Source: Fidelibacterota bacterium (GTDB lineage: Bacteria > Fidelibacterota > Fidelibacteria > Fidelibacterales > Fidelibacteraceae). Taken from it: a stretch of 17,353 nucleotides of DNA. Each line of letters begins with the position of its first letter. Positions within the stretch are counted from its first letter, which is position 1. The stretch is from positions 1 through 17,353 of the forward strand of contig JAYEOX010000058.1 in the NCBI GenBank assembly GCA_034723415.1, written 5' to 3'. Position numbers: made by a program. This document shows positions 6,001-12,000 of the stretch, one piece after another.

Positions 6001-9000
6001 TTTGTAATAAATGTAAATTTTTGTTTTTATATTCTAATTCCATTAGTAAAATATTTTTATCGATATTATTTTTTTTTATGATATTCGTGAAACTTAAAAT
6101 ATTTTTATATTCTGATTTGTGAGCAAATGTTAACAATTTCATTTTAGATCTTTTATATATTTTAGCATTATTGGTTCTTTTATTTTAACACAATGTAATT
6201 TATGAATATTTCTATAAGAGTGAAATAAAAATAATAGATAAAATTCTTGAATATTATATAATGAACAAGTAAATTTAGATATGAATTGGATGCGATTATT
6301 AATAGGAATAGTTTTATTATCTATTTCACAATTAATGTTTTGTGAAAGCATATCTGATTATAACAGTAAAATTAAAAATAGAAATAGAGAATTACAAAAT
6401 ATTGAAAATGAGATTAGCCAATTAAGACAAAATATTCAAAATAAAAAACAGGTGGAAAGTTCATTATTTGAGCAATTAAATCAGGCAGAACATGAAATAT
6501 CATTAACAAATAAAAAAATTAGCACTCAAAAGGAAAAATTAGAATTACAACAGAATAAGTTAAAGGTATTGGAATCAAAAAAAAGCTATCAAATAATTCA
6601 AAAAGAAGATTTGAAAGAACGGTATAAAAATAGAGTTAGACGTTTTTATAAGAATTATAATGATGATATTTATTCATTTATTTATAATTCGGATAATATG
6701 AATGAATTATTTTATCGTTTAAAGTATTTTCAAATTATTAATGAAATAGATAAAAAATTATATGATAAGATAAAATTTTTAATAAGCGATATTGAAAATA
6801 AAACAGTTCAAATCTATGATGGAAAAAAAGAAATAGTAAAAACAATAAATGAATTGAAAGATGAAGATATTAATCTTCAAAGAATGAAAAACAAACGTGC
6901 CAATAGTTTAAGGAAAGTTAAGAAAAATCGATTAGCACTAATAGAATCATTAAAGAATAAAGAAAAATCGCTTCAGAAAATAAAAGGAATGATAAGTAAA
7001 ATTGAAAAAAACAAAGAAAAGTATTTAGCAGAATTAAAGAGGCAAAGGGAATTAGAAGCGAGAAAAAGAAAAAAAAGTTATACAAAAGGACAAATCCCCT
7101 GGCCCGTTTATGGTTCTGTAATAAGTAAATTTGGAAAAGAAGTGCATCCTGAATTAAAAACTGTTACAGAAAATCCCGGCATTGATATTCAAGCACGAAA
7201 AGGAACAAAGGTAAAGTCTGTAATGGATGGAATGGTAACATCAGTTACTTGGTTGCGTGGATATGGGAATACAGTTATTATTTTTCATGAAAATGGTTTT
7301 TTTACAGTATATTCTCATGTTGATGGAATTAGAATAAGAGAAAATGACTATGTAAAATCCGGTCAAACAATAGCAGAAGTGAGTGACAGTGGATCTGTAA
7401 AAGGAGATTTACTTCATTTTGAAATATGGAATGCAAAACAAAAATTAAACCCGGAAACTTGGTTAAAAAGATAAGAATATTAATAAAAGATAAATAAATA
7501 GGTAATTAAATGAATAAAGAAACTAGACAAATATTAATTAAAATTTATGAGAAACAATTTAAAGAAGAAGTAAAAAATATTTCAAAATTAGCTCGTTCTG
7601 GTTCTAATAGGGAATACTATCGCATAAAAAGTGATAACAATTCGGCAATTGGTGTTTATAATCCTGATAAAAAAGAAAATGTTGCTTTTATTGAATTTAC
7701 AAAACATTTTTTGGAAAATGATTTAAATGCTCCGAAAATTTATCAATCTGATTTGAAGAAGAATGTTTATCTTGAAGAAGATTTGGGTGATAAAACACTT
7801 TTCGAATTTTTATCTAATGTCTATCAAAAGGGAATATTTCCACAAAATTTGATTGATGTTTATAAAAATATTTTAACATTACTTCCAAAAATTCAGATAA
7901 ATGTTGATAAAAAAATAGATTATTCAAAATGCTATCCTCGTAATTCATTTGACCGTCAATCTATGATGTGGGATTTAAATTATTTTAAATATTATTTTTT
8001 GAAATTAGCAAAAGTTTCATTTGATGAGCAATTGTTAGAAGATGATTTCCAAAAATTTTGTGACTATTTATTAGATGTTGAAAATAATTTCTTTTTATAC
8101 AGGGATTTTCAATCGCGAAACATTATGTTGAAAGATAACAAAATTTATTTTATTGATTATCAAGGTGGTAGAAAAGGAGCATTGCAATATGATGTTGCGT
8201 CTTTACTTTATGATGCAAAGGCAAATATTCCGGAACATATTCGTAAAGAATTATTGAAACATTATACAAATGAATTGCAGAATTATATTAAAATTGATGA
8301 ACAGAAATTTGTTCAGCAATATTACGGATATGTTTTAATAAGAATAATGCAAGCAATGGGTGCTTATGGATTCAGAGGATTTTATGAACGCAAAGAACAT
8401 TTTTTGAAAAGTATTCCTTATGCAATAAAAAACATGAAATTTATTCTAGAAAATATTGATTTACCGATTGATATACCGGTTTTGTTAGAAGCATTGAATA
8501 ATGTTGTGGAATCAAAATGGCTAAAAAAAATTGGTAAGAAAAATAATAATTTACAAGTTCGTATAAATAGTTTTGCATACAAAAAAGGAATTCCAGGAGA
8601 TGCAAAAGGCAATGGTGGTGGATTTGTTTTTGATTGTAGGGGAATTTTAAATCCCGGAAGAATTGATGAGTATAAAAATTTGACCGGAAAAGATAAAAAT
8701 GTACAAGAGTTTTTAGAAAACAAAACTGAGATAAACGATTTTCTAAAGAATACTTTTGTTTTAGTAGATAGAACAGTTGAAAATTATTTGAATAGGAATT
8801 TTACAGATTTACTGGTTAGTTTTGGTTGTACAGGCGGGTTGCATCGTTCTGTGTATTGTGCAGAGAAATTATCAAAACATTTGGAAAATAAATTTGACAT
8901 TTCAATAATATTAAATCATAGAGAATTAGAGAGTTAACAATTTTATGAAGGCAATGATTTTAGCAGCGGGTTATGGCACTCGTCTAAAACCAATAACAGA

Positions 9001-12000
9001 TGATATTCCGAAAGCATTAGTTAAAATAAATGGAATAACACTTTTAGAAAATGCGATAAAAACCGTATCGCGATTTGGTTTTGATGAAATAATTATCAAT
9101 GTTCATCACTTTTCTGAAAAAGTTAAAGAGTTTATTAAAGAAAATAAATTTCCGGTTAAAATAACAATTTCTGATGAAAGTGAAAAATTGTTAGACACCG
9201 GTGGCGGTTTAAAAAAAGCAAGTTGGTTTTTTAATGACGAGGATTTTTTGCTATACAATGTTGATATTGTTTCTGATATAAATTTAGAAAAAATGTTGGA
9301 GCAACATAGAAATAACCCTTCAATTGCTACATTAGCAGTTCGTAAGCGGGAGTCAGCAAGATATTTACTTTTTAATGATAATAATATATTATGTGGTTGG
9401 GAAAGTGTGAAAAGCAATCAAGAAATTATTAAAAGGATAGCAGAAAAATATACCCCAATGGCTTTTAGTGGAATTCATATAATTAATTCAAAAATTTTCC
9501 AATTGATGCCAAAAGAAAATAAATTTTCAATTATAAAATTATATTTGGAAATTGCAAATAGTAATAGATTGCAAAGTTTTGATCATTCAAATTCGTTGTG
9601 GATTGATGCGGGGAAGATTAAGGGGCTTAAACTTGCTAAGAATATAGCCACGCAAAACACGAAAAATTATACGAAAAGTCAAGAAAAAGTTGAAGATTAG
9701 TTTCTGTGCTTTATTTTAATTAAAAAAAAGGAAAGAAATATGAAAAATACAGGATTAAAAACAGTTTTATCAACTTTAGTTTTTTTTGGGATTATTTATA
9801 TGACATTGACTTTTACGAACAGATCAGGAAGAATGGCATATTTAATTACCGGATTGTTGTTGTTTGCTTTTGGGATTTATTCTTTTATAAAATCTCAACA
9901 AATTAAGGGGAATAAATTTATTAGTAATTTACTAGCAATTACCAGCGGAATAGCAATTTGGGGATTTATCGGAGAATTTATGGAAAATGCTAATTTGTAT
10001 ATTGAACATTCAACAGTTAAAATTGCACACTGGAATTTTCTACCGATTTTATTATTAATGATTTTTATTTTTTTTCAAATTAGAAAAGATTTGAAAATAT
10101 CCGTTCAATTCTCATTAGCAAGTTTTTTAATGATTTGGAGTATGCACTATATTATGATATTTCAATTTGAAGTGCTTTCACGAACACATTTTACCACTTA
10201 TATTATGTGTGGTATGTTTTTAATTTTGACAATATTGGCAATTATTAAAACTAAAAAATCATCTGAAATAAATACAGTTATGTTTTGGTCTTATTTTGGA
10301 TTGTTAACTGCTTGGACTGTGTTAGAATATATTTGGGGGTGGAGATTAATTCCTGGACCTTATTCTATTTAAAAGAAAGTAGCCATGAAAGACACGAAAA
10401 AAAGCACAAAAGTGTAAAAAAATTTAAATATTATTTAAAACAGGAAAAAATAAAAATGATTGATTTAAGAAGTGATACGGTAACAAAACCAACAAAAAAA
10501 ATGAGAGAAGTAATAGCAAATGCAGAAGTTGGAGATGATGTTCTTGGTGATGATATTATTGTAAATAATTTACAAGAACGAGTTGCAAAAATGTTTGGAA
10601 AGGAAGCCGGACTTTTTATGCCAAGTGGAACAATGAGTAACCAAATTGCAATAGCGATTCAAACAGAGCCGGGAACAGAAGTTATATGTGATAAAAATTC
10701 TCATATTTATATTTATGAAAGTGCTGCTCCATCTATAATTTCAGGTGTTCAAATTAAACCATTAGATTGTGGAGACGAAATACTTATTCCAGAAATCCTT
10801 GAAAAAAATATTCACGATTGGAGCGATATTCATCATGCCCCAACTACATTGATTGAAGTGGAAAATACAAATAATAAAGCTGGCGGAATAATTTTATCAT
10901 TAGAAAGAATTAAAAAGATAAAAGAAATTGCAGACAAATATAAAATTCCATTACATCTTGACGGAGCGAGAATTTGGAATGCATCTGTTGCTACCGGAAT
11001 AAGTTTTGAAAAATACGGAAAATATTTTGATACAATAAGTGTTTGTTTTAGTAAAGGGTTGGGAGCGCCGGTTGGTTCAATGTTACTTGGAACAAAAAAA
11101 CTTATAGAAAAAGCATTGAGAAAAAGAAAACAGCTTGGTGGTGGAATGAGACAAATTGGTTTATTAGCTGCCGCTGTGGATTATGCACTTGATAATAATT
11201 TAGATCGAATAAAAGACGATCATAAGCATGCGAAATATTTTGCTGAAGAAGTAAGTAAAATATCAGGGTTTGAGATAAATTTAAAAAATATTCAATCAAA
11301 TATTGTTATGATAAAAGTTAGAGATGGTTATGCAGATATAGTTGTTGAAAAATTAGAAAAGTTAGGATTACAATCTTTATCGCTATCTAAATCAATTATT
11401 AGAGTTGTTTTCCATCTTCATATAAATGATGATGATACGGAAGATGCGATAAAAATTTTAAAAAAGATAAATATTAAAAGAGGAAAAGATGAATAAAAAA
11501 TTATTAAACAGGATTTTTATATCTGTTCTTTATGTTCCAACAATTGTCATTTTATTATATTTTGGGAAATTTTATTTTCTCGGATTTATTATGATTGTTG
11601 CCGGATTAGCATTATGGGAGTTGTTTAATATTACAAAATTTCCATCAACTGTTTTAAAAATCATTAATATCGTTTTATCAATGCTTGGGGCTTTAGCACT
11701 ATATGGTAATAAATTTGTATTTGTTGTTTTATTGATCTTTTTATTATTTTCATTAAATTCTGTGATTTTAATGATATTTTATGAGAAAAATTTTATTAAG
11801 AATTTATTTTTAAGTATTGGCGGTTTTATTTATCCGGCACTAAGTATTGGCTCTTTAATTTTAATTAGAGAATTTCCAAAATTAATAACCGTTCCTTATA
11901 GCACTGGTTGGACGCTTGGGATATTATTGTTTCTTGGTATTTGGATTTGTGATATGTTTGCATATTTTTTTGGAGTTGCTTACGGTAAAAATAAAATTTA

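What a model noticed while it worked through the whole genome (the two positions that open the first line are those of the whole stretch)
7510..9700. MurNAc-salvage kinase (AmgK-type) carrying the metabolite-binding C-terminal domain of the RNase adaptor RapZ, paired wi [...]
g00652 (475 aa) joins an APH/AmgK-type sugar kinase domain (1-330) to a RapZ C-terminal domain (348-474), in place of RapZ's own P-loop domain. It is followed by a MurU-like sugar-1-phosphate uridylyltransferase (g00653). This genome has no murA, murB or glmS, so this pair is the only route to UDP-MurNAc that I found. The phosphate pocket of the RapZ-type domain (CTGGxHRS) is invariant. The domain therefore probably senses or holds an amino-sugar phosphate at the entry to cell-wall salvage, rather than an sRNA.
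Evidence so far: Pfam PapZ_C 9.7e-34 (348-474) plus APH. PDB sequence search: residues 328-474 match E. coli RapZ 140-280 (4e-17), and residues 24-305 match the APH-family structure 3csv (4e-16). The alignment to RapZ shows the T248/G249/H252/R253 pocket motif GCTGGxHRSVY kept, with H190 replaced by G-R. In the 18-sequence alignment the motif is invariant and mean identity is 66%. AF2 model: pLDDT 87.9, two domains joined by a short low-confidence linker at 342-346. NCBIfam hits are below cut-off but specific: residues 1-337 hit only the two AmgK models (NF045759 6e-14 over 7-297 of 324; NF045698 1e-11), and g00653 hits the MurU models best (NF045761 2.6e-37, NF045697 1.3e-32). PapZ_C lies next to NTP_transf [...]
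(Added by a program. Inside this text positions count along the whole contig: contig position 1 is position 1 of the stretch shown here. "Call 12" and the like, gene names such as g00115 and contig names such as C1 are that model's own, and its searches are not shown. The text may have been shortened before it was handed on; [...] marks where a part breaks off. The agent that wrote the report below was given it as the finding of a first reader that could run no searches.)

Follow-up and report, generated by a model that had tools for sequence, protein, structure and literature searches.

The report
Salvage kinase with likely phosphatase tail
These two genes most likely recycle the cell-wall sugar MurNAc in a bacterial lineage that cannot make it, and the extra domain on the kinase looks more like the missing sugar-phosphate phosphatase of that recycling route than a passive sensor.

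Summary
Observation confirmed: a 475-aa AmgK-like kinase fused to the RapZ C-terminal domain (CTD), followed by a MurU-like gene. murA was not found in any of 27 genomes of this order. In 41 phylum genomes the fusion and murA are nearly complementary (29 fusion only, 9 murA only, 1 both, 2 neither). The missing glmS is local; congeners keep it.

The 'pocket' CTGGxHRS is a CX5R loop with Cys440 invariant (150 of 150 diverse homologues), and the fold weakly matches dual-specificity phosphatases. In Bacteroidota, anmK genomes without the module nearly all keep murQ (79 of 80); with it only 12 of 20 do. So the module behaves as the outlet for MurNAc-6P, a route that needs a phosphatase. Best guess (about 0.45): the CTD is that cysteine-dependent phosphatase (MupP role). 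A sensor role is about 0.3.

The fusion is widespread, and this scan noted it before in at least 8 other genomes. The phosphatase-loop likeness of RapZ is already in print (PMC7199280). No activity was tested.

The parts
7510..8937 (+). Fusion gene, 475 aa: AmgK-like kinase + RapZ C-terminal domain
7510..8514 (+). APH-fold kinase domain (about aa 1-335), predicted MurNAc/GlcNAc anomeric 1-kinase
   Evidence: only the AmgK models hit this part; 3csv top by sequence and fold; 29% identical to CTD-less kinases that lie beside murU-like, namZ and a sodium:solute symporter gene
8101..8121 (+). Kinase catalytic loop R198-N204 (RDFQSRN); metal-binding D216 follows
   Evidence: invariant in 120 of 120 aligned sequences; role assigned from recalled APH-fold knowledge
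8551..8931 (+). RapZ C-terminal (PapZ_C) domain, aa 348-474; predicted cysteine-dependent sugar-phosphate phosphatase or phosphate-binding sensor
8632..8658 (+). Conserved D375-C-R377...N381-P-G383 loop (RapZ D182-H190 region; F181/D182 form the dimer interface in RapZ)
   Evidence: PMC5737377 passages
8827..8850 (+). C440-T-G-G-x-H-R446-S: CX5R(S) phosphate loop, candidate nucleophile Cys440
   Evidence: C440, T441, G442, G443, H445 and R446 present in 150 of 150 cluster representatives at 43-61% identity; motif in 26 of 26 Bacteroidota carriers
8945..9700 (+). MurU-like sugar-1-phosphate uridylyltransferase, 251 aa
   Evidence: best NCBIfam hits are the two MurU models; best PDB hit 4y7t (recalled as P. 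putida MurU), and 8hhd, named MurU
6281..7474 (+). Upstream EnvC-like coiled-coil/M23 gene, 35 nt before the kinase; local context, not a conserved partner
   Evidence: the only recurring real neighbour among 80 outside loci was the NTP transferase

Best explanation
The kinase phosphorylates free MurNAc (and probably GlcNAc) at C1, and the MurU-like enzyme turns MurNAc-1P into UDP-MurNAc, bypassing MurA/MurB, which this lineage lacks (inferred, about 0.85). The appended RapZ-type domain is a cysteine-dependent phosphatase: Cys440 attacks the 6-phosphate of an amino sugar (MurNAc-6P from AnmK or a MurK-type kinase; possibly GlcNAc-6P or GlcN-6P) held by the CTGGxHR loop, with His445 or Asp375/Asp395 as candidate acid/base. 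The freed sugar goes to the attached 1-kinase. The protein would thus move the phosphate from C6 to C1, doing the jobs of Pseudomonas MupP and AmgK in one chain. Shown here: architecture, conservation, fold and gene co-occurrence. Inferred: every substrate and all catalysis.
For: (1) CX5R(S) loop with Cys440 in 120 of 120 fusion proteins and 150 of 150 cluster representatives. (2) After RapZ itself (Z 18.9), 9 of the top 50 fold matches are named dual-specificity-type phosphatases (Z 4.7-5.3, rmsd 2.7-3.6, 80-88 aligned). In four of them the range ends put C440 on the catalytic position (DUSP28 C103, DUSP5 C263, SSH2 C392, STYX G120; numbers recalled, not verified). PMC7199280 states that the RapZ pocket is homologous to the loop of cysteine-dependent PTPs and speculates on GlcN6P hydrolysis. 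The Xanthomonas protein HpaP, cited among RapZ homologue studies, is reported to have phosphatase activity. (3) In 151 Bacteroidota genomes the CTD occurs in 26, always with the kinase (23 fused, 3 adjacent). Among anmK genomes, murQ was found in 79 of 80 without the module but 12 of 20 with it, so 8 of 9 anmK+/murQ- genomes carry it (Fisher 5e-6, overstated by kinship). Those 8 need 6 changes on the kinase tree, at least 4 forced by well-supported branches. (4) Kinases without the CTD (31 genomes) have neither anmK nor murQ (0 of 31); the 8 distant ones fetched lie beside a MurU-like gene, and in the one checked namZ and a symporter follow, a setting that supplies free MurNAc. (5) The CTD is also found between both enzymes in one chain (43 of 72 long hits), joined to the transferase alone (2 of 150) and as a separate gene between them, which fits a pathway step.
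Against: No activity is shown, and I found no paper showing hydrolysis by RapZ. E. coli RapZ-CTD has the same residues and behaves as a tight GlcN6P binder (KD 10 nM by SPR, PMC7073468). The fold matches are in the range that the tool calls a common arrangement, tied with PFK and P-loop kinases; no sequence profile links the CTD to a phosphatase family (LMW-PTP hhalign probability 6.8%). No general acid was located. F374/D375 may be invariant for dimerisation (RapZ F181/D182). anmK is only slightly commoner in carriers (20 of 26 against 81 of 125), and 4 of 26 carriers lack both anmK and murQ. This genome itself has no anmK or murQ hit, although 28 of 30 phylum carriers have anmK. The co-occurrence supports the module, not the CTD specifically: generic HAD phosphatases are present, and the MupP test is weak (0 of 8 over cut-off, but also 0 of 14 controls including Caulobacter). 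The 31 CTD-less genomes are only two lineages outside the CTD clade.
Confidence: 0.45

Rival explanations
1. One reading: AmgK-MurU salvage as above, but the CTD only binds an amino-sugar phosphate (GlcN6P, MurNAc-6P or the 1-phosphate product) and tunes or dimerises the kinase, with at most slow hydrolysis as a timer.
For: [quoted passage not shown] Dimer residues are invariant. Many carriers have both murQ and the salvage route, a branch point worth regulating (14 of 26). The motif is intact in genomes with no anmK hit.
Against: A pure binding site does not need an invariant cysteine at the nucleophile position. The domain occurs fused to the kinase, to the transferase, or free. The model does not fix the two domains tightly (pTM 0.70 whole against 0.88 for the CTD alone). 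It leaves the 8 anmK+/murQ- genomes needing an unlinked phosphatase.
Confidence: 0.3
2. The CTD is catalytic but in another way: a phosphocysteine transferase or mutase that hands the 6-phosphate to another sugar, or a house-cleaning phosphatase that removes wrong sugar-1-phosphates made by a promiscuous kinase.
For: CX5R loop without an evident general-acid Asp (N381-P where LMW-PTPs have D-P, weak alignment); retained in carriers with no anmK or murQ hit (G099, G117, G143, G163 and G000).
Against: No direct evidence; the anmK/murQ pattern is explained more simply by hydrolysis of MurNAc-6P.
Confidence: 0.13
3. The pair activates a different sugar (for example for LPS or capsule), and the AmgK/MurU likeness is only family resemblance.
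For: All AmgK and MurU scores are far below curated cut-offs; mannose-1-phosphate guanylyltransferases score close to MurU in the PDB search.
Against: Near-complementary distribution with murA in the phylum; a full murC-G cluster without murB; namZ beside related kinases; the anmK/murQ pattern.
Confidence: 0.08
4. The CTD binds an sRNA or RNase as in E. coli RapZ.
For: Same fold and dimer residues; databases label some members 'RNase adapter RapZ'.
Against: Basic tail missing (0 of 120 and 0 of 100 with 8 or more K/R in the last 19 residues); the RapZ N-terminal domain needed for GlmZ cleavage is absent; no Rfam match in the window.
Confidence: 0.04

Closest known systems
AnmK-MupP-AmgK-MurU anabolic MurNAc recycling (Pseudomonas putida/aeruginosa; also Caulobacter, Legionella, Tannerella forsythia)
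   Same: APH-fold kinase next to a short nucleotidyltransferase; AmgK and MurU are the best models; route bypasses MurA/MurB.
   Different: Kinase carries a 130-aa RapZ-type domain; scores far below the equivalog cut-offs; Pseudomonas MupP is an unlinked HAD phosphatase; murQ often co-occurs here, whereas PMC5371407 describes the two routes as alternatives in proteobacteria.
E. coli RapZ C-terminal domain (PDB 5o5s, 5o5q; Pfam PF22740)
   Same: Fold (Z 18.9, rmsd 2.0, 36% identity), CTGGxHRS loop, F-D-x-R...N-P loop.
   Different: No P-loop N-terminal domain, no basic RNA-binding tail, H190 replaced by Gly, extra GNGGG insertion, attached to a sugar kinase.
[quoted passage not shown]
   Same: CX5R(S) loop between strand and helix; weak fold matches to 9 named phosphatases.
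   Different: His before the Arg; no general acid identified; no detectable sequence-profile similarity.
Tannerella forsythia MurNAc auxotrophy
   Same: Lacks murA, murB and glmS and uses AmgK-MurU (PMC5790795, PMC7670621, passages).
   Different: Here an uncultured lineage outside Bacteroidota, with murA not found across a family and order; whether the T. forsythia AmgK carries this domain was not tested.

Membership tests
AmgK | APH/choline-kinase fold with catalytic loop and metal-binding Asp | tested here: met
AmgK | Score above the NCBIfam equivalog cut-off (NF045759, NF045698) | tested here: not met
   50.6 against 550 bits and 43.3 against 500; so filed as AmgK-like, not as a member
AmgK | Gene linked to murU | tested here: met
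   7 nt apart here; 12 of 12 phylum loci; 56 of 80 outside loci, with 5 cut by contig ends and 19 lacking it within the locus
AmgK | Phosphorylates MurNAc/GlcNAc at C1 | not testable with these tools
   needs an assay
MurU | Single-domain NTP transferase scoring best on MurU models | tested here: met
MurU | Score above the equivalog cut-off | tested here: not met
   128.9 against 250 and 113 against 370 bits
RNase adaptor RapZ | N-terminal P-loop domain plus CTD | tested here: not met
   no P-loop domain hit; NF003828 108 against 244 bits, only aa 313-473
RNase adaptor RapZ | Basic C-terminal RNA-binding tail | tested here: not met
   mean 3 K/R in the last 19 residues, none with 8 or more
RapZ C-terminal domain (PF22740) | Pfam score above cut-off and RapZ-CTD fold | tested here: met
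   116.6 against 27 bits; Z 18.9
CX5R cysteine phosphatases | Conserved C-X5-R(S/T) loop after a strand, before a helix | tested here: met
CX5R cysteine phosphatases | Shared fold with the Cys in register | tested here: inconclusive
   Z 4.7-5.3 only; register read from range ends with recalled residue numbers; paper check failed
CX5R cysteine phosphatases | General acid residue | tested here: inconclusive
   D375 (149 of 150), D395 (142 of 150) and H445 (150 of 150) are candidates; no coordinates available to measure
CX5R cysteine phosphatases | Cys-dependent phosphate release | not testable with these tools
   needs an assay
MupP (HAD family) | HAD fold and motifs | tested here: not met
   no HAD hit for the protein; the claim is an analogous role, not membership

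The most novel reading that the evidence does not exclude
The RapZ C-terminal domain is at root a cysteine-dependent amino-sugar-6-phosphate phosphatase. In FCB-group bacteria it is the unrecognised, non-HAD MupP equivalent, fused to AmgK (and sometimes MurU) to give a one-chain route from MurNAc-6P to UDP-MurNAc. Whole uncultured families of this phylum are MurNAc auxotrophs that depend on it, and E. coli RapZ is a regulatory descendant of this enzyme.
Probability: 0.4. Interest if true: 0.72.

Novelty: new variant of a known kind. Interest (0 to 1): 0.52.

Why it matters
It offers a small, well-folded test protein for an open question, whether the RapZ pocket hydrolyses amino-sugar phosphates (raised in PMC7199280). 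It names a candidate for the phosphatase step of MurNAc recycling outside proteobacteria, where that route confers intrinsic fosfomycin resistance. It corrects a common database label ('RNase adapter RapZ'). It also predicts that a family and order of uncultured bacteria (nearest named homologues are Marinimicrobia) need MurNAc or peptidoglycan in the medium, a direct cultivation hint. The architecture itself is common and not special to this genome.

Tried and rejected
Literature: no paper holds both 'AmgK' and 'RapZ'. Searches found no description of the fusion and no demonstration of RapZ hydrolysis. The library lacks most subscription papers. Not readable: Hottmann 2021 and Wodzanowski 2022 on T. 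forsythia AmgK and Burroughs and Aravind 2023, which may already describe this architecture or predict its chemistry. No supplements were read.

Circular permutation of an LMW-PTP: both expected segments align but at probability 6.8% and 0.6%; not claimed. Pfam, PDB-profile and Atlas searches gave no phosphatase family for the CTD. Foldseek found only RapZ in PDB and RapZ-like proteins of giant viruses.

One search used a wrong accession (a Mycoplasma family) and is void. The MupP test was redone on the 8 anmK+/murQ- carriers and 2 controls: none over the cut-off, best 101 of 359 bits, but no control genome passes either, so inconclusive.

anmK and murQ in G000: no hits. The murQ site falls at the end of contig C140 and the anmK site near the end of C178. 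Laying four runs of one study on the G001 anmK locus gave no continuous cover in the likely source run, which proves nothing; no RNA holder listed. Unresolved.

Idea that the fusion marks murA loss generally: rejected, 23 of 26 Bacteroidota carriers keep murA. Idea that G071 lost the CTD: not supported, it branches outside the CTD clade. Promoter scan at chance level (50 against 49.9). Complex prediction of kinase with CTD was not available.
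Full report
OBSERVATION. The window holds a 475-aa ORF at 7510-8937 and a 251-aa ORF at 8945-9700, both +, 7 nt apart. 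The first has an APH-fold kinase part and a PapZ_C domain at aa 348-474 (9.7e-34). It matches E. coli RapZ 140-280 and the APH-family structure 3csv. In NCBIfam it hits only RapZ and the two AmgK models, all far below cut-off; the second ORF scores best on MurU, also below cut-off, and its best PDB hit is 4y7t, recalled as P. putida MurU. AF2 on 120 sequences gives two domains (pLDDT 90.1, pTM 0.70). The contig is native: neighbouring genes are 91-92% identical and syntenic in congeners.

GENOME AND LINEAGE. G000 is 94.4% complete; the nearest named homologues are Marinimicrobia. It has murC-G and mraY in a dcw cluster where murC directly abuts ftsQ. No MurB_C was found; the murA-like and glmS-like hits are aroA and purF. 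It has two namZ, nagA, a ROK kinase, a glmM-like mutase and a GlmU that consists of the uridylyltransferase half only. In 41 genomes of the phylum, murA passes the cut-off in 10 and in 0 of 27 from this order. The fusion is matched in 30 (two of them only as contig-end pieces): 29 fusion only, 9 murA only, 1 both, 2 neither (90% and 84% complete). By family this is four with the fusion and six without, so the independent count is small. glmS is different: congeners G001 and G003 have it, and G000 lacks it at the G001-syntenic site inside a contig. anmK is present in 28 of the 30 carriers and murQ in most, but neither was found in G000 or G004; contig ends leave this open.

SPREAD. Of 80 GTDB loci, 76 are fused and 4 split with the kinase directly upstream; these were picked by motif patterns, so they say nothing on motif conservation. 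The NTP transferase lies in 56 of 80 loci (57 by clustering), and no other real neighbour recurs in more than 6. Carriers include Bacteroidota, Ignavibacteria, Calditrichota, a spirochaete, Elusimicrobia and Methylomirabilis. Triple fusions kinase-CTD-transferase make up 43 of 72 long hits; CTD-transferase fusions are 2 of 150 representatives; transferase-kinase fusions without the CTD are 14 of 72. This scan noted the same fusion earlier in at least 8 other genomes (unchecked notes).

THE DOMAIN. C440-T-G-G-x-H-R446-S is a CX5R(S) loop. C440, T441, G442, G443, H445, R446, R377, N381 and P382 are present in 150 of 150 cluster representatives at 43-61% identity. The CTD model (pLDDT 91.8) matches RapZ at Z 18.9. 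Next come ties at Z 4.7-6.0: PFK, P-loop kinases, tetrapyrrole-type methylases and 9 named dual-specificity-type phosphatases among 50 rows. In four of these the aligned range ends place C440 on the catalytic position, by residue numbers that I recall and could not verify. These scores alone may mean only a common arrangement, and no sequence profile links the CTD to a phosphatase family. The likeness is in print for RapZ: PMC7199280 (passage) notes homology to the loop of cysteine-dependent PTPs and speculates on GlcN6P hydrolysis. [quoted passage not shown] PMC9503650 (passages) describes that superfamily as taking phosphate from sugars through a cysteine but does not mention RapZ. RapZ's RNA-binding tail (8 K/R in 19, PMC5737377 Discussion) is missing.

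CO-OCCURRENCE TEST. In 151 Bacteroidota genomes drawn evenly (completeness filter 95), PapZ_C occurs in 26, always with the kinase. Of these, 23 have murA, 20 anmK and 14 murQ. AnmK makes MurNAc-6P, which leaves either through MurQ or through a phosphatase and AmgK-MurU (PMC5371407, passages). Of 81 anmK genomes without the module I tested 80: 79 have murQ at E 1e-40 or better, 76 over the cut-off. Of 20 anmK genomes with the module, 12 have murQ. So 8 of 9 anmK+/murQ- genomes carry the module (Fisher 5e-6; kin are not independent). On a kinase tree these 8 need 6 changes, at least 4 forced. In two of them anmK lies within about 12 kb of the fusion. Thirty-one further genomes have a related kinase without the CTD; none has anmK or murQ. 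I fetched 9 of the 31: all have the transferase next door, and in the distant group namZ and a sodium:solute symporter follow (checked in one). That group looks like green sulfur bacteria by gene content (my inference). These 31 are only two lineages. Against the reading: anmK is barely enriched in carriers (20 of 26 against 81 of 125), 4 carriers have neither anmK nor murQ, and an unlinked HAD phosphatase could serve, since the MupP model test was uninformative.

MECHANISM. Most likely: NamZ and other hydrolases free MurNAc; the kinase makes MurNAc-1P; the transferase makes UDP-MurNAc for MurC. The same kinase could feed GlcNAc-1P to the half GlmU, covering the loss of glmS. This part is inferred at about 0.85. 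For the CTD I rank phosphatase for MurNAc-6P or a related amino-sugar-6-phosphate first (whole model 0.45), non-catalytic or slow sensor second (0.3), other cysteine chemistry third (0.13), a different sugar pathway 0.08, RNA adaptor 0.04.

NOVELTY. The pathway, both enzyme types, the domain and its phosphatase-like loop are known; the fusion is common and labelled in databases. No paper in the library holds both AmgK and RapZ (other searches under Tried and rejected), but key papers were unreadable. New here, as far as I could see: the anmK/murQ pattern that makes the CTD a candidate MupP analogue, and murA not found across a whole order of this phylum. Verdict: new variant of a known kind, interest 0.52.

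PAPERS SEEN. Passages: PMC7199280, PMC7073468, PMC7670621, PMC5790795, PMC5371407, PMC8054146, PMC13691567, PMC10941766, PMC13046382, PMC11957156, PMC9742497, PMC9503650, PMC13147768 (nothing useful). Passages plus Discussion: PMC5737377. Unrelated abstract and outline: PMC10027431. Recalled only: Burroughs and Aravind 2023. Seen only as citations: Hottmann 2021, Wodzanowski 2022, Luciano 2009, Cui 2018. No supplements read.

Noticed in passing
window 1-2145 and G000:C135:28-2362: metK and the two following lipoprotein-like genes have a second copy on C135 (93%, 66% and 69% identical), while four relatives show one copy of the gene tested. The window copy is the one 91-92% like congeners; the C135 copy may be a paralogue or foreign DNA.
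   Followed up: partly
L185:629-814 (G000:C55:9629-9814, +): 61-aa bacterial histone-fold protein (PDB 8fvx/8cmp at 2e-8; weak Pfam CBFD_NFYB_HMF), right beside the place where glmS is missing.
   Followed up: partly
L174:510-1259 (G000:C27:47510-48259): GlmU with only the uridylyltransferase half (250 aa); fits salvage of GlcNAc-1P, though a separate acetyltransferase was not searched for.
   Followed up: partly
L166-L173 (G108, G104, G192, G100, G168, G140, G164, G064): Operon of CTD-less AmgK-like kinase, MurU-like transferase, namZ and sodium:solute symporter in a clade that looks like green sulfur bacteria: a candidate MurNAc uptake and salvage unit with a candidate MurNAc transporter.
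   Followed up: partly
G014:C83:8360-8767: A second CTD match in a 290-aa frame, probably a canonical RapZ beside the fusion in the same genome.
   Followed up: no
P0352, P0356, P0335, P0346 and others: CTD at the end of proteins with unrelated-looking N-termini; may be gene-calling artefacts at contig ends or further architectures.
   Followed up: no
BFVD hits: RapZ-C-like proteins in giant viruses (Klosneuvirus, Hyperionvirus, Yasminevirus, Pithovirus, Marseillevirus).
   Followed up: no
window 12366-15372: GlmL/MutL-family gene (NF040745 and NF040744 below cut-off) followed by a 376-aa gene without a clear family.
   Followed up: no
window 2164-7474: Cluster of envelope genes upstream: divergent polysaccharide deacetylase, two M23 peptidases (one EnvC-like), a PGA_cap protein and, on the other strand, a nucleosidase-family gene.
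   Followed up: no
P0253-P0257, P0259, P0296: MurU-like domain in proteins of about 1,170-1,200 aa with a PF12705 domain, and with PF04480/PF18741 in P0244-P0245.
   Followed up: no
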